Shown: in pieces, positions 9,640 through 18,847 of the stretch
How the letters are laid out: every line of letters begins with the position of its first letter
Numbering within the stretch: the first letter of the stretch is position 1
Source of the DNA: Planctomycetia bacterium
GTDB lineage: Bacteria; Planctomycetota; Phycisphaerae; Phycisphaerales; SM1A02
Assembly: GCA_005798965.1 (NCBI GenBank)
Contig: SYIB01000062.1
Location: 1 to 31,297 of the forward strand
Direction of reading: 5' to 3'
DNA length: 31,297 nt
Program-made: the position numbers and the translations under genes
Notes under the pieces: model-generated
Seen by the model: only the letters and a program-made list of their open reading frames with translations
Databases searched by the model: none
What the model was told of the DNA's origin: nothing

Positions 9640-10107
9640 ATGGCTGCCACCAAGGTCCAACGTCATCGTGCCATCGCCCGCCTCATCGCCGGCGCCGAGC
9701 TGCACAGCCAGCACGAGCTGCAGCGCGAGCTCGCTGCCCAGGGCATTCGCACCACGCAAGCCACGCTCTCGCGTGACCTTGCGGAACTCGGGGTGCTCAA
9801 GGGCGCCGGCGGCTATCGGCTGCAGGGTGGCGCCCCCGAGCCCTCGGTCGATGCGCTCGATGCCCTTGCGCGGCGGCTCCTGGCCGGCGTCGAACAGGCC
9901 GGGAACCTCGTGGTGCTCCACACGCCGCCGGGCCAAGCCAGCGCGCTGGCGCTCCAACTTGACCGATCGAGCATGCGCGGCGTCGTCGGCACCATCGCCG
10001 GCGATGACTGCGTCTTCGTGGCCACGCGCACGGCATCGAACGCCAAGGAACTCGTACGTCGGCTGACCGTCGCCGCCTCGCCCGCCCGCCGCAAGGCCAC
10101 GGCCTGA
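9640..10107 (+). CDS. argR: Arginine repressor
   Basis: wHTH 'SQHELQRELAAQGIRTTQATLSRDL', C-terminal 'NLVVLHTPPGQA' and 'VVGTIAGDD'. Confidence 0.96.
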   Translation: MAATKVQRHRAIARLIAGAELHSQHELQRELAAQGIRTTQATLSRDLAELGVLKGAGGYRLQGGAPEPSVDALDALARRLLAGVEQAGNLVVLHTPPGQASALALQLDRSSMRGVVGTIAGDDCVFVATRTASNAKELVRRLTVAASPARRKATA

Positions 10108-10135
10108 GCGGCCGGCCGCGCCTTCCCCCACCACC

Positions 10136-11200
10136 ATGACCACGCCCACCCTTCCCGTTGCCGTTGTCGGTGCCGCTGGCTACAGCGGAGCCGAGCTCGT
10201 CGCCATGCTGGCTGCGCACCCCGAGGTGTCGGTCGTTGGGGTCTATGGCTCGGGCTCGCGCGCCGGCAACGAAGCGCTGTCGAGCGTGCATCCACGCCTC
10301 CGCGGTGTGGCCGACCTGCCCATCGAGGCGGCCGATCCGTCCGCCATCATCGCCTCGGGCGCCAAGGCGGTTTTTCTCTGCACTCCACACGAAGCAAGCG
10401 AGGCCTTGGCCCCGGCGCTGCTCGATGCTGGCCTCGCTGTGCTGGATCTCTCGGCATCCTTCCGCCTGCGCGATCCCGCGCTCTACCCCGCGCACTACGG
10501 CTTCGAGCATCGCCATCCTGACTTGCTGGCGACTGCGGTCTATGGCCTCGCGGAGCTCAGACGGAATGATCTGATCGGTGCGCAGCTCATCGCCGTGCCC
10601 GGCTGCTATCCGACCAGCGTCATCCTCCCGGTGCGACCGCTCGTCGATGCTGGTCTCGTCCTGCCCGATCGTGTGATCGTCGACAGCGCCAGCGGTGTCA
10701 GCGGTGCAGGCCGAACCGCCGCCGTCAAGAGCCTGTTCTGCGAGGTCTCGATGCAACCCTACGGCGTGCTCTCGCACCGCCACCAACCTGAGATGGCGCA
10801 GGAAACCGGCGCCGATGTGCTGTTCACGCCCCATCTGGGCTGCTGGGACCGCGGCATCCTCTCCACGATCCATGCGGACCTTGCGCCGGGCACCACCGTC
10901 GATGCCTGCCGCCAAGCGCTCACCGATCGCTACGCGGCCAGTGCCTTTGTGCGAGTGCTGCCCGAGGGGTCGTGGCCCAGCGTGGCGGGCGTCGAGCGGA
11001 CGAACTTCTGCGACATCGGGCTTGGTGGCTGCGATCGCCGCGGCCACCTGGTCATCGTGAGTGCCATCGACAACCTGGTCAAGGGCGCGGCTGGCCAGGC
11101 GCTGCAGTGCATGAACCTCCGCTTCGGCTTCCCCGAGTCCATGGGCCTTGGCCTTTCCCGTCACGCCAACGCAAGCACCAACGCCGGAGCCTTGGCGTGA
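10136..11200 (+). CDS. argC: N-acetyl-gamma-glutamyl-phosphate reductase
   Basis: 'VVGAAGYSGAEL', catalytic 'VPGCYPT', 'SGVSGAGR', 'SAIDNLVKGAAGQALQCMN'. Confidence 0.98.
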   Translation: MTTPTLPVAVVGAAGYSGAELVAMLAAHPEVSVVGVYGSGSRAGNEALSSVHPRLRGVADLPIEAADPSAIIASGAKAVFLCTPHEASEALAPALLDAGLAVLDLSASFRLRDPALYPAHYGFEHRHPDLLATAVYGLAELRRNDLIGAQLIAVPGCYPTSVILPVRPLVDAGLVLPDRVIVDSASGVSGAGRTAAVKSLFCEVSMQPYGVLSHRHQPEMAQETGADVLFTPHLGCWDRGILSTIHADLAPGTTVDACRQALTDRYAASAFVRVLPEGSWPSVAGVERTNFCDIGLGGCDRRGHLVIVSAIDNLVKGAAGQALQCMNLRFGFPESMGLGLSRHANASTNAGALA

Positions 11201-12006
11201 GCGCACCCTTCGTCATCAAGCTCGGCGGCGCGCTGATGGACAGCCCCTCCGCGCTCACGCCGATCTGCCAGCAGATTGCCGCCATGCACGCGTCGCAGCC
11301 CGGCTGCGTGGTCGTCGTGCATGGTGGGGGCAAGGCCGTCGATCGCCAGCTCGCCGCACTTGGCATGCCGACCGAGCGGCGCGATGGCATCCGCATCACG
11401 CCGCCCGAACAGGTGCTGCAGATCAGTGGCGTCCTGAGCGGCCAGGTCAATGCCCAGCTCGTCGCCAGCATGATCGCCGCCGGGGTGCGCGCCTGCGGGC
11501 TTCGACTCTCCGATGCCGGTCTTGCAGCGTGCACCCGGGCCACGCACCTGGGCTTCGATCCCGGCTGCGTCGGCTCGGTCCACGCCGGTGACCCAAGCGG
11601 CATTCGTGCACTGCTGGGCGCGGGCGTGCTGCCGGTCGTCAGCAGCATCGGCACGAGTGCAGCGGGCGAACTGCTCAACGTCAACGCCGACGATGCCGCC
11701 GCCGCGGTCGCCTCGATCCTCCGTGCTCGCGGGCTGGTGTTCCTCACCGATGTGCCAGGCGTGCTTGCTGCCGGCCACGGCATCATCCCGGAGCTCGATG
11801 CCGCAACGATCGATCGGCTCGTCACCGATGGCACGATCACCGGCGGCATGATTCCCAAGGTCCGCGGTGCGCTCGAAACCGCCGCAGCCACTGGCGTGGC
11901 GGTCACGATCGCCGGCTGGGCCGACCCCGCCATCCTGTCGAACTTGCTCTCCGGTGGCGTCGCCGGGACCCGCATCGCCGCACCATCCGAGCTGCCCTGC
12001 CCATGA
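11197..12006 (+). CDS. argB: Acetylglutamate kinase (short type without N-terminal helix)
   Basis: GTG 11197 overlaps the argC stop (GTGA) and has SD GGAG. 'FVIKLGG', 'VVHGGG', 'NVNADDAAAAVA', 'LTDVPGV', 'ITGGMIPKV'. Confidence 0.96.
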   Translation: MSAPFVIKLGGALMDSPSALTPICQQIAAMHASQPGCVVVVHGGGKAVDRQLAALGMPTERRDGIRITPPEQVLQISGVLSGQVNAQLVASMIAAGVRACGLRLSDAGLAACTRATHLGFDPGCVGSVHAGDPSGIRALLGAGVLPVVSSIGTSAAGELLNVNADDAAAAVASILRARGLVFLTDVPGVLAAGHGIIPELDAATIDRLVTDGTITGGMIPKVRGALETAAATGVAVTIAGWADPAILSNLLSGGVAGTRIAAPSELPCP

Positions 12007-13025
12007 CCAAGCTTGCCACCACGCCGGCGGCACACCCGGCCACCGCTTCCACGCAGCGCCCCTTGGCCACGCGCCACCTCACCTGCGTGCACGACCTTGC
12101 CCAGCACGAGGTCCACGGCCTGCTCGCACTTGCCGCGCGCATCAAGCGCAATCCTGCTGCCTGGTCGACGGCCTTTCGTGGCATGGCGCTTGCGCTCGCG
12201 TTCGAGAAGCCCTCGCTGCGCACCCGCGCGTCGTTCGAAGTCGGTTTCCAGCTCATGGGGGGCAGCGTGGTCTTCATGGACCAGCGCGATTCGCCCATCG
12301 GCCAGCGCGAGGCGCTGAGCGACTGGGCCCGCAGCATGGAGCGCTGGTTCGATGCTCTCGTGGTGCGCACGATGTTGCACAGCACGGTCGAGGCCCTCAC
12401 GGCATGGTCCTCGATCCCGGTCGTCAATGCCCTCAGCAATCTGCATCACCCGTGCCAGGCCATGGCTGACCTGCTCACCCTGGCCGAGCGATTCGGCTCG
12501 GCGGCGATTCCCCATGTGGCTTGGGTGGGCGATGGCAACAACGTCTGTCACTCGCTGATGGAAGGCATCGCGACCGTCGGCGGCAGGCTCACGGTCATCA
12601 CGCCGCGGGGCCTCGCCCCATCGGCCGACATCGTGCGTGCGGTGCAGGCTCGATGCATGCGTACCGGCGCATCGATCCGGTTCACGCACGACCTCGATGC
12701 GGTGTCGGGCGCGAGCGCCATCTACACGGACACCTGGATCAGCATGGGGGAAGCCGATGCGGAACCCAAGCGTGCTGCGCTTCGGCCGTATCAGGTGAAT
12801 GCCGCACTGATGGCCAAGGCGGCGCCCGGTGCGGCGTTCATGCACTGCCTCCCCGCCCACCGCGGCGAAGAAGTCTCCGACGATGTGATCGATGCCCCCA
12901 CCTCGGTCGTCTTCGACCAAGCCGAGAATCGCATGCACGTGCAGTGCGCCATCCTGCTTGCACTGCTGCGCCCTGACCTCGTCGAGCTGCCCACCGCATT
13001 CGTGCCCAGCAATCTCTCGGCCTGA
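12003..13025 (+). CDS. argF: Ornithine carbamoyltransferase
   Basis: 'FEKPSLRTR', 'HHPCQAMAD', 'WVGDGNNV', 'YTDTWISMG', 'FMHCLPAHRG', 'DQAENRMH'. Confidence 0.96.
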   Translation: MTKLATTPAAHPATASTQRPLATRHLTCVHDLAQHEVHGLLALAARIKRNPAAWSTAFRGMALALAFEKPSLRTRASFEVGFQLMGGSVVFMDQRDSPIGQREALSDWARSMERWFDALVVRTMLHSTVEALTAWSSIPVVNALSNLHHPCQAMADLLTLAERFGSAAIPHVAWVGDGNNVCHSLMEGIATVGGRLTVITPRGLAPSADIVRAVQARCMRTGASIRFTHDLDAVSGASAIYTDTWISMGEADAEPKRAALRPYQVNAALMAKAAPGAAFMHCLPAHRGEEVSDDVIDAPTSVVFDQAENRMHVQCAILLALLRPDLVELPTAFVPSNLSA

Positions 13026-13082
13026 ACCGTTTCCCAACCGACCGCCATCCCTGACCCGTACCTTCCAAGGAAAGCACCGACC

Positions 13083-14314
<1,232 letters not shown>

Positions 14315-14318
<4 letters not shown>

Positions 14319-16207
14319 CAGCGCTCTGGGCCGGCCGCGCCAGCGGCGAAGTGGATCCTCTCTTCAAGCGCTTCAACGACAGCCTGCCTTTCGACCGCAG
14401 GCTCGTGCGCGAGGACATCGAGGGCAGCATCGCCTGGGCTCGCGCACTCAAGCATGGTGGCGTCCTCGATGCGACCGAGCTCACGCGTGTGACCGAGGGT
14501 CTCGAAGCGGTCCTCGAGCTCGTGGAGTCCGATCCCTCGTCGATCGAGTCCGCGCAGGACGAGGATGTGCACTCGTTCGTCGAGCGCGAGCTCGTCGCCC
14601 GCATCGGTGATCTGGGCAAGAAGCTCCACAAGGGCCGCAGCCTCAACGATCAGGTAGCAACCGACCTTCGCCTCTGGACGCTCGCCGAGATCGAGCAGCG
14701 CCGCATTGAGATCGACGGCGCCATCGAGGCGCTGCTGCGGCTGGCCGAGCGCGAGAAGGAGACGGTCTTCCCCGGCTACACGCACCTGCAGCGTGCGCAG
14801 CCGCTCCTCTTCGCCCACTGGTGCCTGGCCTACGTCGAGAAGCTTTCGCGCGACAGTGATCGCCTCGCCGATGCCGCGCGCCGCACGGCGGTCTGTCCGC
14901 TCGGCTCGGGTGCGCTCGCGGGGACCACCTACCCGATCGATCGCGTGCGTCTGGCCGAGAGCCTTGGTTTCCAAGCCGCCAGCGCCAACAGCCTCGATGC
15001 GGTCAGCGACCGCGACTTCGTCGTCGAGACGATCGCTGCGTGCACGCTCTGCGCGGTGCATCTCTCGCGCTTTGCCGAGGACGTGATCTTCTATGCCAGC
15101 GCCGAGGCAGGCTTCGTGGAGCTCAGTGATGCCGTCACCAGCGGCAGCAGCCTGATGCCGCAGAAGAAGAACCCCGACGCGCTCGAACTCATCCGCGGCA
15201 AGACCGGCCGCCAGATCGGCAACCTCGTCACGATCCTCACGGTCCTCACGGGGCTGCCGCTGGCCTACAACGAGGATCAGCAGGAGGACAAGGAGCCGCT
15301 CTTCGACTGCATGGAGCACCTCTCCATGTGCCTGCGCATGACAGCCATCGTCCTCGATGGCATGACCATCAATCGCGAGCGCTGCCGCGCTGCCGCACTC
15401 GGCGGCTACTCCAACGCCACCGAACTCGCCGACTACCTCGTCGCCAAGGGGCTCCCCTTCCGTGATGCCCATCACGTCGCCGGGCGGCTCGTGCGCAAGG
15501 CGATCATCGAGCAGAAGCCGCTCGAGGGCCTGAGCGTCGAGCAGATGTCGAGCGAGGACTCGCGCATCGGCTCCGACGTGTACACGGCGCTCACGGTCGA
15601 CAGTGCCCTGCGCAAGCGTGATGTGCCCGGTGGCACGGCACCCAGCCGCGTCGCCGAGCTCCTGGGTGCACGCAAGGCGCGGTTGGGCCATCGACGCGTA
15701 CGCACGCCCATGGGCGGTGTCACGATCCGCAAGGCACGCATGGCGGATCTTGACGGCATCGTGTCGCTCGTGGAGCACTGGGCCCGCGAAGGCGAAAATC
15801 TGCCGCGCTCCCGCGACGAGATCATGGAATGCGTGCAGGAGTTCGCCGTTGCCCAACTGGCCGATGGATCAACCGACAAGGTCGTCGGGTGCGGCTCGCT
15901 CTGGGTGTACACGCCACAGCTGGCCGAGATCCGCAGCCTGGGCATCGACCCATCCATGCTCGGGCACGGCATCGGCCAGAAGCTCGTGCAGTACTTCCTC
16001 GACTGGGCAGCGAAGCTCGGGCTGCAGAAGGTCTTCGTGCTCACCCGTACGCCACGGTTCTTCGAGCGCTGCGGCTTCCGGCAAGTGAGCGTGAACAGCC
16101 TTCCTGAGAAGGTGCTCAAGGACTGCGCCAACTGCCCGAAGAAGGAACAGTGCGACGAGATCGCGATGGTGTTCGAGCTCGCCGCTCCCGCCACCGCCAA
16201 CACCTGA
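14315..16207 (+). CDS. argH: Argininosuccinate lyase fused to a C-terminal GNAT amino-acid N-acetyltransferase, ArgH(A)
   Basis: Residues 1-465 are a lyase ('PGYTHLQRAQP', 'TSGSSLMPQKKNPD'). Residues ~466-630 (from 15710) are a short ArgA-type GNAT ('ENLPR', 'LAEIRSLG', 'KVFVLTR', 'LPEKVLKDCANCP...CDE'). Several normally invariant lyase residues are substituted (see findings). Confidence 0.93.
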
Positions 16208-16227
16208 ACCCTGCGGAGTTCCCTGCC

Positions 16228-17433
16228 ATGACCACCACCGCAAGCGCACCGCGTCGATCATCGGCCGGCCCAGCCGACCTCCCCCTGCCCTTGGGCTTTG
16301 CCTGCGCAGGGATCGCGGTTGGCATCAAGAAGTCGGGTGCGCCCGACCTGGGCTTGCTGTTGTGCGCCAAGGGCGCCGTGGCCGCGGCCATGTTCACGCG
16401 CAACCTCGTGGCCGCCGCACCCATCCAGGTGTCCCGCACGAACCTGGCGCGCAGCCGAGGACATTGCACCGCCCTGCTGGTCAACTCCGGCTGCGCCAAT
16501 GCCGCCACTGGCCCACACGGATTGGCAGCCTGCCAGGAGACGATCGACGCCCTCGCGCGACTCAGTGACTGCGCCCCCGAGGCCGTGCTCGTGAACTCCA
16601 CCGGAGTGATCGGTGTGCTGCTCCCAAGCGATCGGATCGTCTCGGCGCTGCCTGCGCTGTTGGCGGGTCTCACGACCGAGTCGTGCGCGCCCTTCGCCAC
16701 GGCGATCATGACGACCGATACCCGCGCCAAGGCATGCACGCGGACCGTCGGCAACGTCCGCGTGACCGGTGTGGCCAAGGGCGCGGGCATGATCCACCCC
16801 GATATGGCCACCATGATCGTGGCCATCACCACCGACGCAGCCGTCGATGCCCCCACGCTCGATCGAATCCTGCGCCGCAGCGTCGATCGCAGCTTCCACC
16901 GCATCAGCGTCGACGGCGATACGAGCACCAACGACAGCGTCTTCGCTCTCGCCAGCGGCCAGGCCGGCGCCTGCGACGAAGCGCTGCTGCAGACCGCCTT
17001 CGATGAGGTCTGCACCGACCTCGCCCTGAAGGTCGTGCAGGATGGCGAGGGCTTCGAGCGAGGCATCAAAGTCACGGTGACCGGCGCTGCCACGCCCGCG
17101 GCTGCGCTGCAGGTTGCGCGCACCGTGGCCATGAGCCTGCTCGTGCGTACTGCAGTGACCGGTGGTGATCCCAACTGGGGCCGCATCCTGGCCGCGGCGG
17201 GTCGCGCCGGCGTGCCGTTCAATGTCGAGGAACTTCGTGTAGGCGCCAACGGCGTGCCGCTCTTCGAGGGTGGTGCCCCTGCCGACAGCGCCATCACCAG
17301 CCGCCGCGCGGCGTTCACCGCCGACATCGTGCACATCACGATCGACCTGGGCCAAGGTGCATGCAGCGATGTCTTCTACAGTTGCGGCCTGACCAAGCGC
17401 TACGTCGAGATCAACGCCGACTACACCACCTGA
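16228..17433 (+). CDS. argJ: Ornithine acetyltransferase ArgJ
   Basis: ATG 16228 with SD GGAG. 'NSGCANAATG', 'STGVIG', 'IMTTDT', autoproteolysis motif 'KGAGMIHPDMATM', 'ISVDGDTSTND', 'GGDPNWGRI', 'YVEINADYTT'. Confidence 0.97.
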   Translation: MTTTASAPRRSSAGPADLPLPLGFACAGIAVGIKKSGAPDLGLLLCAKGAVAAAMFTRNLVAAAPIQVSRTNLARSRGHCTALLVNSGCANAATGPHGLAACQETIDALARLSDCAPEAVLVNSTGVIGVLLPSDRIVSALPALLAGLTTESCAPFATAIMTTDTRAKACTRTVGNVRVTGVAKGAGMIHPDMATMIVAITTDAAVDAPTLDRILRRSVDRSFHRISVDGDTSTNDSVFALASGQAGACDEALLQTAFDEVCTDLALKVVQDGEGFERGIKVTVTGAATPAAALQVARTVAMSLLVRTAVTGGDPNWGRILAAAGRAGVPFNVEELRVGANGVPLFEGGAPADSAITSRRAAFTADIVHITIDLGQGACSDVFYSCGLTKRYVEINADYTT

Positions 17434-17945
17434 GCACGCGTGCGCAGTGCCATGAGTGCCGGTCGCCAGGCCTCCGGCACGATCGGCAGCATGGCGGCAG
17501 CAACAGGATCAAGCTCGCTCGCGGGGCGCGAGCTGCGCCACACGCCGTGCTCGTGGAAGGCGAGCGCCACCATCGCCACATATCGCACGATGCCAGCCAC
17601 GCGCAGCAAGGGCGGCCAGTCCGCCCGGACAGGCCCATCGGGACCGTGGCGCGCAGCGTCGATGCGATCCAGCGATGCAAGGGTGCCCGGTTGCGGCAAT
17701 ACCTCCAAGAGATCGATGGCCAACGTGCCTGCGCCGGATCCGGCAAGCCACTGACGGACAAGGACATCGGCGGGCAACCGTTCGCCAAGCAGTGCCGCGT
17801 ACAGCGCAGCGCAGCGGGTGCGCTCGCTGCTTGCCGCATCGCTCGTGCGGATCGCGGGCTCACGCACTCCGCGTTCATGGAACACGGGAGCATCGCGGCG
17901 ATCGGCGCCGTCGGGGGCAGCATCAGCTGGAGGCAGTGCGCTCAT
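17421..17945 (-). CDS. Hypothetical alpha-helical protein cotranscribed with the ECF sigma factor
   Basis: 174-aa ORF with SD AGGAG (10-nt spacer), 41 nt after the sigma stop. Its 3' end overlaps argJ convergently by 13 nt. No recognisable family. Confidence 0.65.
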   Translation of the reverse strand: MSALPPADAAPDGADRRDAPVFHERGVREPAIRTSDAASSERTRCAALYAALLGERLPADVLVRQWLAGSGAGTLAIDLLEVLPQPGTLASLDRIDAARHGPDGPVRADWPPLLRVAGIVRYVAMVALAFHEHGVWRSSRPASELDPVAAAMLPIVPEAWRPALMALRTRAQVV

Positions 17946-17986
17946 GGCTCAGGAACTCCTGACTCCAAGCATCGTGGTTCCAAGAC

Positions 17987-18661
17987 TCATGGCTCCAGAT
18001 GCGAGAGCAGAGCCACGAGTTCACGCTCGACGTCAGCCTCGGCAACCTGCTCTGCCGAGAGCACGCCACGCAGTGCATCGAGCACCAAGCCCCGGACACG
18101 CGCCGTGGCGTGGCGTGCAGCATCGATGGGAATGCCCAGGGGTGGCGCACACTCTGCATAGGGCTTGCCATGCACGAAGTGCTCGATGAAGAGAATCCAC
18201 TCGTGGCTGCGACCTTGTGCATCGAGCGCTCGCTGCGCGGCATCCGATGCCGTCTGGATCAGCGATGCCGCGTAGGCGCGTTCAAAGGCGGCCTGGGCGT
18301 TGTCGGACTCGACCAGCTCCGCGAGCGCTTCATCGGCGGTGCCTGATCGACGACGCTCCGCCCGGATGCGATTCATGAGCTCGAACCGCGCGGCGGTGCG
18401 CAGCCAGAGACGGAACGGTCGCTCGGCGCGCTGCCAAGCATCGAGGAAGGCAGGATCGAGGATCCGAGCACAGAGATCCTGCACCACGTCCTCGACGTCG
18501 AGACGCGCACCAAAGGCATGCAGGTAGCGCAGCAGCGGTTCGCGATAAATGGACGTGAGGTTGGCCGCGAGTTCGCGGCGCTGCTCAGGCGAGCCGTCGC
18601 GCGCCACGGCCAGCCACGAACGGGCCGACGGTGGGAAGGAATCGCTGATGGGCGACGGCAT
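17987..18661 (-). CDS. ECF-type RNA polymerase sigma factor
   Basis: sigma2: 'YREPLLRYLHAFG...DVEDVVQDLCARIL' and 'RPFRLWLRTAARFELMNRIRAERRR'. sigma4 HTH: 'LFIEHFVHGKPYAECAPPLGIPIDAARHATARVR'. Confidence 0.85.
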   Translation of the reverse strand: MPSPISDSFPPSARSWLAVARDGSPEQRRELAANLTSIYREPLLRYLHAFGARLDVEDVVQDLCARILDPAFLDAWQRAERPFRLWLRTAARFELMNRIRAERRRSGTADEALAELVESDNAQAAFERAYAASLIQTASDAAQRALDAQGRSHEWILFIEHFVHGKPYAECAPPLGIPIDAARHATARVRGLVLDALRGVLSAEQVAEADVERELVALLSHLEP

Positions 18662-18847
18662 GCAAGGATCGTAGGTAGAACGGTTCCCTACTGCGGATGT
18701 GACATCGATGTTCTGAATCTGCGAAGGATTCCCACTCGCCCCGCGACGCCCCCACGAGTCATGACTCCTTCACGTGTCGGCAGTTTTCCGGGGCTGCCGA
18801 CGCTGGTCCGATCGCGCGATCCCGGTTCTCCTCCCATTGGGGGGGCT

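What the first reader, a model, noticed from the sequence alone, without database searches (positions are those of the whole stretch)
14627..15292. ArgH domain has substitutions at normally invariant active-site residues
Seen: conserved region 1 reads H-K-G-R-S-L-N-D-Q (14627-14653) instead of H-T-G-R-S-R-N-D-Q. The Y-N-K-D-(M/L)-Q-E-D-K motif reads Y-N-E-D-Q-Q-E-D-K (15266-15292), and nearby K(G/A)LP reads TGLP (15248) and AYVEM reads AYVEK (14840). Catalytic T-H-L-Q and G-S-S-x-M-P-Q-K-x-N-P are intact. Most changes are one base from consensus codons (ACG>AAG, CGC>CTC, ATG>AAG, AAG>ACG, AAG>GAG). I saw no comparable damage in the other arg genes. Established: the second Arg of SRNDQ and the YNKDxQEDK segment contact the amino-acid moiety of argininosuccinate in ASL/delta2-crystallin. 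Three explanations: (a) altered specificity, with T>K and R>L four residues apart as a possible charge swap; (b) a decaying lyase kept as a tetrameric scaffold for the fused ArgA, analogous to inactive delta1-crystallin; (c) assembly or consensus errors.
Basis: partly seen in the sequence, partly recalled or inferred. Interest (0 to 1): 0.65.

Follow-up and report, generated by a model that had tools for sequence, protein, structure and literature searches.

The report
ArgH(A) with four private active-site substitutions
The only argininosuccinate lyase gene found in this planctomycete genome has four amino-acid changes at positions identical in every relative examined, so the last step of arginine synthesis is probably crippled or remodelled, but the raw reads could not be checked.

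Summary
The ORF at 14315-16207 (+) is a clear ArgH(A): argininosuccinate lyase fused to a short GNAT N-acetylglutamate synthase, in an argR-argCBFGH(A)J operon of a Phycisphaerales MAG.

Four of the six flagged changes are real anomalies: T106K, R110L, K312T and K320E. These sites are invariant in about 120 close homologues, in all nine same-genus genomes, and in E. coli and duck proteins. M176K and L322Q are ordinary features of this clade.

The damage is specific to this gene. The window deviates at 4 of 150 invariant lyase columns and at 0 of 372 in thrS, argG, argF and argJ (p=0.007). The lyase domain still shows strong purifying selection on this lineage (pN/pS 0.05), and the GNAT part has no replacements. 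All other tested catalytic residues are intact. No second argH was found in the 78%-complete genome.

K312 and K320 match the published tetramer-interface and His-Glu-relay lysines. R110 matches human R113, where substitution causes disease. An unrelated Clostridia contig has privately replaced the same two lysines.

Best reading (0.42): genuine, recent mutations that cripple the lyase. Rivals are a compensated active enzyme, an assembly artefact, and new specificity. No independent copy of the allele was found.

The parts
14315..16207 (+). argH(A): 630-aa fusion of argininosuccinate lyase and a short GNAT N-acetylglutamate synthase (stop codon included)
   Evidence: NCBIfam NF008964 scores 833 bits (cut-off 657) and TIGR00838 scores 591 bits (cut-off 279.5). 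Pfam finds Lyase_1, ASL_C2 and Acetyltransf_1.
14315..15694 (+). Lyase domain (residues 1-460)
   Evidence: Pfam places Lyase_1 at residues 7-301 and ASL_C2 at 365-432. The best solved structure is E. coli ArgH 1tj7, E=9e-158. Window-branch pN/pS is 0.052.
14456..14458 (+). A48G (GGT), a private change at a position that is 94% Ala
14630..14632 (+). T106K (AAG), equivalent to duck delta2-crystallin T111 and first residue of the C1 motif TGRSRNDQ
   Evidence: T in 119 of 119 homologues. Relatives carry ACC or ACT. Numbering follows the alignment to 1k7w.
14642..14644 (+). R110L (CTC), equivalent to duck R115 and human R113
   Evidence: R in 119 of 119 homologues. Human R113W is listed as likely pathogenic (PMC12512550).
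14780..14785 (+). T156-H157, the catalytic Thr-His of motif C2, intact
14840..14842 (+).
   Evidence: K is also present in P0003, P0004, P0010, P0030 and the cluster mates.
15143..15175 (+). GSSLMPQKKNP, the catalytic Ser loop (C3), intact; E291 of the His-Glu relay at 15185-15187 is also intact
15248..15250 (+). K312T (ACG), equivalent to goose/human K315 and duck K317, the buried lysine at the diagonal-subunit interface
   Evidence: K in 120 of 120 homologues. Its structural role is described in PMC4701392.
15272..15274 (+). K320E (GAG), equivalent to goose K323 and duck K325, the lysine H-bonded to the Glu that positions the catalytic His
   Evidence: K in 120 of 120 homologues. Its role is described in PMC2779060.
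15278..15280 (+).
15713..16180 (+). GNAT (short NAGS) domain, residues about 467-622, with no amino-acid replacement on the window's branch
   Evidence: NF005840 scores 162.5 bits (cut-off 154). The branch count is N=0, S=18.
9640..17433 (+). Operon context: argR, argC, argB, argF, argG, argH(A), argJ

Best explanation
The gene is a genuine ArgH(A). On the terminal branch leading to this species, its lyase domain acquired four real mutations: T106K, R110L, K312T and K320E. By homology with characterised enzymes, R110L removes the Arg whose substitution causes disease in human ASL. K320E reverses the charge of the Lys that holds the Glu of the His-Glu relay across a subunit boundary. K312T removes the buried Lys that ties the diagonal subunits together. 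T106K places a new Lys in the C1 loop. The nucleophile/acid-base machinery (Ser loop, Thr-His, Lys, Asn, Glu) is untouched. Inferred consequence: argininosuccinate cleavage is abolished or strongly reduced. The change is recent, because neither the lyase domain nor the neighbouring arg genes show relaxed selection. The polypeptide is still in use, through the untouched ArgA/GNAT domain and perhaps some residual lyase activity. This would be an early stage of losing arginine prototrophy, in a family where several genera already lack the pathway. Shown: the substitutions, their uniqueness, their restriction to this gene, and the selection statistics. Inferred: loss of activity, recency, and that the bases are correct.
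For: The four residues are unique among 120 homologues, the cluster mates and nine congeners. They are extremely rare in 185,579 genomes and in the JGI metagenome contigs. The damage is gene-specific: 4 of 150 invariant columns against 0 of 372 (p=0.0066). No frameshifts or stops occur in any operon gene. T106K and A48G each need two base changes, and the mutation spectrum matches the background. Branch statistics are lyase pN/pS 0.052, GNAT 0, and other genes 0-0.13. The only other Lyase_1 gene in the genome is purB. No argF, argG, argH or argJ match was found in five genera of the same family (G011-G015); a sixth, G016, lacks argF and argJ and has only weak argG/argH-like hits. All six genomes are 90-96% complete. 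The structural roles of K315 and K323-E294-H160 come from PMC4701392 and PMC2779060. E294L leaves about 10% activity. Human R113W is pathogenic.
Against: No reads and no second assembly of this species could be examined, so the bases are unverified. The exact protein is on record from one contig only. Catching a gene just after inactivation needs a narrow time window, roughly 2% or less of the branch. Three of seven private changes fall in the classical active-site segments, which random post-inactivation drift would give only about 2% of the time. The same two lysines were replaced together in an unrelated lineage. That points to epistasis, and so to continued selection on the protein, rather than free decay. 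The genome is 78% complete, so a second argH cannot be excluded. No activity data exist.
Confidence: 0.42

Rival explanations
1. Compensated, still-working lyase. The four changes are epistatically linked and rearrange the charges of one pocket and one interface. T106K would relocate the positive charge lost with R110L. K312T and K320E would be a coupled pair. The enzyme would still make arginine, perhaps with changed kinetics or oligomeric stability.
For: The lyase domain and argG remain under strong purifying selection on this branch. All 20 other functionally studied residues are intact. In a Clostridia contig (L065/P0256), both equivalent lysines are privately K>E while 119 relatives keep K/K. 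That contig was picked only for K320E, so the second hit is not due to ascertainment. By inference from PMC2779060, K320 comes from a different subunit than E291 and H157, most likely the subunit that supplies the C1 loop.
Against: These residues are invariant from bacteria to humans, and no clade carries the combination. Every occurrence found is private to a single assembly. Human R113 substitutions cause disease. Net charge falls by three per subunit, with no compensating gain near 312 or 320. Three-dimensional contacts could not be computed here.
Confidence: 0.2
2. Assembly or consensus artefact: a local burst of wrong bases in a low-coverage, fragmented MAG (357 contigs, 78% complete). 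The true gene would carry the consensus residues.
For: The allele is seen in one contig only. No independent copy turned up in the genome, metagenome or protein searches. Random errors would hit invariant columns as often as neutral mutations do (P=0.16 for 4 or more of 7). Partial Pantoea ASL entries show K>N at the same lysines next to contig ends, so such artefacts do exist in deposited MAGs.
Against: The gene sits 14 kb from either contig end. There are no frameshifts or stops in the aligned genes. The window deviates at 0 of 372 invariant columns in four control genes on the same contig. Two of the odd codons need two base changes each. Synonymous divergence is not raised locally.
Confidence: 0.18
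3. Neofunctionalisation. The fumarate-eliminating machinery is kept, while the residues that hold the leaving-group part of the substrate are changed, giving a lyase for a different N-succinyl or guanidino compound.
For: The pattern of intact catalytic motifs, altered binding residues and a low overall dN/dS is what a specificity switch looks like.
Against: This is the only argH found, it sits directly after argG in an intact arg operon, and congeners have a single copy. Switching without duplication would sacrifice arginine synthesis. There is no clade of similar sequences. K312T lies at an interface, not in the pocket.
Confidence: 0.08

Closest known systems
ArgH(A) bifunctional argininosuccinate lyase / N-acetylglutamate synthase of marine gammaproteobacteria (Moritella, Idiomarina; Xu et al. 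2006, PMC1382215; NCBIfam NF008964)
   Same: It has the same two-domain architecture, the same argCBFGH(A) gene order with tightly coupled genes, and an argR. It scores well above the family cut-off.
   Different: The host is a Phycisphaerales planctomycete. The operon also carries argJ. Four residues invariant in the family are replaced in the lyase half.
Canonical argininosuccinate lyase / duck delta2-crystallin (PDB 1tj7, 1k7w, 1aos)
   Same: The fold and all catalytic residues match: S278, T156, H157, K284, N286, E291, and also S23, D27, D84, H86, R233, Y318, Q323, D325 and K326.
   Different: The equivalents of T111, R115, K317 and K325 (duck numbering) are K, L, T and E.
Enzymatically inactive delta1-crystallin
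   Same: It is an ASL-fold protein that is retained although lyase activity is lost. That resembles the best reading here.
   Different: By my recall of Vallee 1999 and Sampaleanu 2001 (not re-read here), delta1 loses activity through its N-terminal loops, with the C1 motif and the 320s segment intact. Here the reverse holds. Inactivity is not demonstrated for the window's protein.
Goose delta-crystallin interface mutants K315A/L and E294L (PMC4701392, PMC2779060)
   Same: K312T and K320E affect the same interface lysine and the partner of the same Glu. These mutants show lower stability, and E294L retains about 10% activity.
   Different: Those are laboratory single mutants. Here the changes occur naturally and in combination with two C1-loop changes.

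Membership tests
ArgH(A) fusion (NCBIfam NF008964) | Full-length HMM score above the curated cut-off | tested here: met
   833.4 bits against a cut-off of 657, covering residues 3-623
ArgH(A) fusion (NCBIfam NF008964) | Lyase_1 plus ASL_C2 followed in frame by a roughly 150-aa GNAT | tested here: met
   Pfam places domains at 7-301, 365-432 and 515-589; NF005840 scores 162.5 against 154
Argininosuccinate lyase (TIGR00838, EC 4.3.2.1) | HMM score above the cut-off | tested here: met
   590.6 bits against 279.5
Argininosuccinate lyase (TIGR00838, EC 4.3.2.1) | Catalytic Ser loop GSSxMPxKxNP and the C2 Thr-His | tested here: met
   GSSLMPQKKNP at residues 277-287 and T156-H157
Argininosuccinate lyase (TIGR00838, EC 4.3.2.1) | C1 motif T-G-R-S-R-N-D-Q | tested here: not met
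   The window reads K-G-R-S-L-N-D-Q; T and R are found in 119 of 119 homologues
Argininosuccinate lyase (TIGR00838, EC 4.3.2.1) | K-G-L-P...Y-N-K-D-x-Q-E-D-K segment | tested here: not met
   The window reads T-G-L-P...Y-N-E-D-Q-Q-E-D-K; both K are found in 120 of 120 homologues
Argininosuccinate lyase (TIGR00838, EC 4.3.2.1) | Cleaves argininosuccinate to arginine and fumarate | not testable with these tools
   This needs an enzyme assay or a complementation test
Inactive ASL-fold protein (delta1-crystallin type) | Loss of activity through changes in the N-terminal 20s and 70-89 loops | tested here: not met
   S23, D27, D84 and H86 are intact and invariant

The most novel reading that the evidence does not exclude
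The four changes are a selected, epistatically coupled remodelling of the ASL pocket and the diagonal interface. The paired replacement of the K312 and K320 equivalents recurs independently in a Clostridia ASL. This would give a viable enzyme with a different oligomeric or regulatory behaviour, or a new substrate, in the only argH of the genome.
Probability: 0.15. Interest if true: 0.7.

Novelty: new variant of a known kind. Interest (0 to 1): 0.45.

Why it matters
If the bases are right, this is a natural ArgH caught with its substrate-binding and interface residues changed while everything else is still under selection. It would be either a snapshot of how a biosynthetic pathway starts to die in a streamlined aquatic bacterium, or evidence that residues thought immutable in ASL can be replaced as a set. 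The recurrence of the K312/K320 pair in an unrelated lineage gives a concrete hypothesis about coupling between the interface lysine and the lysine of the His-Glu relay, and it can be tested cheaply. It also bears on whether the lyase half of ArgH(A) is needed for the fused NAGS.

Tried and rejected
Same-genus genomes were used instead.
- I looked for an independent copy of the allele four ways. Cluster members: none carries it. Degenerate DNA pattern for HKGRSxNDQ in 185,579 genomes: 42 hits, of which only one is an ASL. Degenerate pattern for YNEDxQEDK in metagenome contigs: 11 hits, one ASL. Search for shorter proteins: no near-identical fragments. The genus holds only 10 species and none is closer than 91.5% at nucleotide level.
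- The primary delta2-crystallin structure papers are not held, and one literature search was wasted. Substrate-contact statements for R115 and T111 therefore rest on my recall plus the human disease data.
- An unusual mutation process was rejected. The transition/transversion ratio and the number of multi-base codon changes are like the background. There is no adenine-specific pattern that would suggest a diversity-generating retroelement.
- Pathway-wide relaxation was rejected. argG, argF and argJ have no hits at invariant columns, and branch pN/pS is 0.03-0.13, as in sister lineages.
- The second Lyase_1 hit is purB, not an ASL.
- Three-dimensional distances between the four residues could not be computed, because no coordinates are available from the tools. 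No structure prediction was run, since it would not resolve point-mutation effects.
- Locus L172 (G039, unpublished) was left out of the analysis.

Full report
**What is there.** The ORF at 14315-16207 (+) encodes a 630-aa protein (P0002). It matches the bifunctional ArgH(A) model NF008964 at 833 bits (cut-off 657). It also matches argH TIGR00838 at 591 bits (cut-off 279.5) and the short N-acetyltransferase NF005840 at 162.5 bits (cut-off 154). Pfam finds Lyase_1, ASL_C2 and a GNAT domain. The gene sits in an operon argR-argC-argB-argF-argG-argH(A)-argJ. The window is a whole 31,297-bp contig of a 2.06-Mb, 357-contig, 78%-complete MAG. Its homologues are labelled Phycisphaerales or Phycisphaerae.

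**Checking the observation.** I aligned the protein with its 120 best homologues, which are 60-97% identical and all ArgH(A) fusions. T106K, R110L, K312T and K320E are unique to the window, because 119-120 of 120 sequences carry T, R, K and K. The same holds for the members of its own 90% cluster and for all nine other species of the genus. E. coli ArgH and duck delta2-crystallin also carry T, R, K and K.

- M176K and L322Q, also flagged, are shared with the nearest relatives and are normal clade features.
- A fifth private change, A48G, lies at a position that is 94% Ala.
- T106K and A48G each need two base changes from the relatives' codons. The other three need one.

**How unusual this is.** Of the 121 aligned sequences, 106 have no deviation at columns invariant in all the others, and 13 have one, mostly conservative. 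Only the window (four, all radical) and one N-terminally truncated sequence have more. A degenerate DNA pattern for HKGRSxNDQ found one other ASL in 185,579 species genomes. It is a Gemmatimonadetes MAG with T>K only, and there too the change is private, since 24 relatives keep T. A pattern for YNEDxQEDK found one ASL in the metagenome contigs.

**Is the contig generally unreliable?** It does not look so. All arg genes align full-length to congeners without frameshifts or stops. I built order-wide alignments from related genomes for four control genes. The window deviates at 0 of 212 invariant columns in thrS, 0 of 43 in argG, 0 of 47 in argF and 0 of 70 in argJ. In the lyase domain it deviates at 4 of 150 (Fisher p=0.0066). 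The substitution spectrum and the number of multi-base codon changes match the background.

**Selection.** The nearest relatives differ by about 9-11% at nucleotide level, so the window's terminal branch is long. I polarised changes against the two closest species.

| Region on the window's branch | Synonymous changes | Non-synonymous changes | pN/pS |
|---|---|---|---|
| Lyase domain | 65.5 | 10.5 | 0.052 |
| GNAT domain | 18 | 0 | 0 |
| argG | 39 | 4 | 0.029 |
| Other arg genes | – | – | 0.10-0.13 |
| Housekeeping neighbours | – | – | 0-0.08 |

These values are similar to those of the sister lineages. The lyase domain has therefore been constrained for nearly all of this branch. Either the four changes are recent, or the protein that carries them is still under selection. 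With 33% of lyase columns invariant, 4 of 7 private changes falling on invariant columns is what neutral drift or random error would give (P=0.16). Three of the seven fall in the classical active-site segments, which cover about 10% of the positions. That has a chance probability of only about 0.02.

**What the residues do.** Numbering follows the alignment to 1k7w.

- K312 corresponds to goose/human K315. This is the buried lysine that links the diagonal subunits. K315A lowers thermal stability by about 9 °C, and K315L partly dissociates the tetramer (PMC4701392).
- K320 corresponds to goose K323. It H-bonds E294 from another subunit, and E294 in turn positions the catalytic H160. E294L keeps about 10% activity and destabilises the dimer-dimer interface (PMC2779060).
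- R110 corresponds to human R113. R113W is listed as likely pathogenic in argininosuccinate lyase deficiency (PMC12512550).
- By my recall, the equivalent duck R115 binds a substrate carboxylate, and T111 aligns with an active-site Ser of fumarase C. The papers were not held, so this is unverified.
- Twenty other functionally studied residues, including the Ser loop, Thr-His, K284, N286 and E291, are intact.

**Context.** The only other Lyase_1 gene in the assembly is purB. Congeners have a single argH(A). In the same family, five genera (G011-G015, 90-96% complete) gave no argF, argG, argH or argJ match. A sixth, G016, lacks argF and argJ and has only weak argG/argH-like hits. Loss of arginine synthesis is therefore common in this group.

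**A recurrence.** The one metagenomic ASL found through the K320E pattern is L065/P0256, a stand-alone Clostridia-type argH that follows argG. It also has the K312 equivalent replaced by Glu. All 119 of its closest homologues, including one at 97% identity, keep K/K. Its private changes cluster in the same helix: M>V, L>H, K>E, K>E. The contig was selected only for K320E, so the second lysine is an independent observation, with a coincidence probability of roughly 2%. This hints that the two lysines are coupled.

**Interpretation.** I weigh four readings.

- *Crippled lyase (0.42).* The substitutions are genuine and recent, and they cripple or strongly weaken argininosuccinate cleavage. The polypeptide is retained for its untouched ArgA domain and perhaps for residual activity. 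This would be an early step toward arginine auxotrophy.
- *Compensated enzyme (0.20).* The enzyme is still active. This is supported by the continuing constraint and by the K312/K320 recurrence. It is opposed by universal invariance and by the absence of any clade with these residues.
- *Local assembly artefact (0.18).* This is possible because the allele is known from one contig only. It is opposed by the clean controls, the mid-contig position and the two-base codon changes.
- *New specificity (0.08).* This is unlikely without a second argH.

Noticed in passing
window 9640-17433; homologues P0003-P0122: The argH(A) fusion and the argCBFGH(A) order were described as confined to marine gammaproteobacteria (PMC1382215). 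Here they are widespread in Phycisphaerales, with 120 or more fusion homologues plus an added argJ. E. coli ArgH is by far the best solved-structure match (E=9e-158). This suggests an old transfer or a much wider distribution.
   Followed up: partly
genomes G011-G016 and G023: Five genera of the same family (G011-G015, 90-96% complete) gave no argF, argG, argH or argJ match. G016 lacks argF and argJ and has only weak argG/argH-like hits. G023, from another family of the order, lacks argG, argH and argJ but has an argF-like match. thrS was found in all of them. They look like arginine auxotrophs.
   Followed up: partly
L065:595-1962 (-), protein P0256: A Clostridia-type stand-alone ASL on a 3.2-kb metagenome contig has private K>E changes at both lysines equivalent to K312 and K320. 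It also has private L>H and M>V changes next to them. All 119 closest homologues keep K/K.
   Followed up: yes
L059:3475-4800 (-), genome G031: The ASL of a Gemmatimonadetes MAG reads HKGRSRNDQ, with T>K at the same Thr as in the window. The change is private, since 24 relatives at 51-95% identity all have T.
   Followed up: yes
proteins P0211 and P0255 (Pantoea MAG entries, partial): Partial ASLs that end just after the motif show K312N, Y318S and K320N within the last 20 or so residues. These are probably contig-end assembly errors, which shows that such artefacts exist in deposited MAGs.
   Followed up: no
window 17361-18805: The region downstream of argJ is poorly conserved within the genus (41-49% amino-acid identity for ORF 17361-18161; 77% nucleotide identity over 17987-18805). 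The two minus-strand ORFs there have no Pfam match.
   Followed up: no
G018:C96:4898-6754: The argH(A) of a related genus contains one in-frame TGA. It could be a sequencing error or a broken gene.
   Followed up: no
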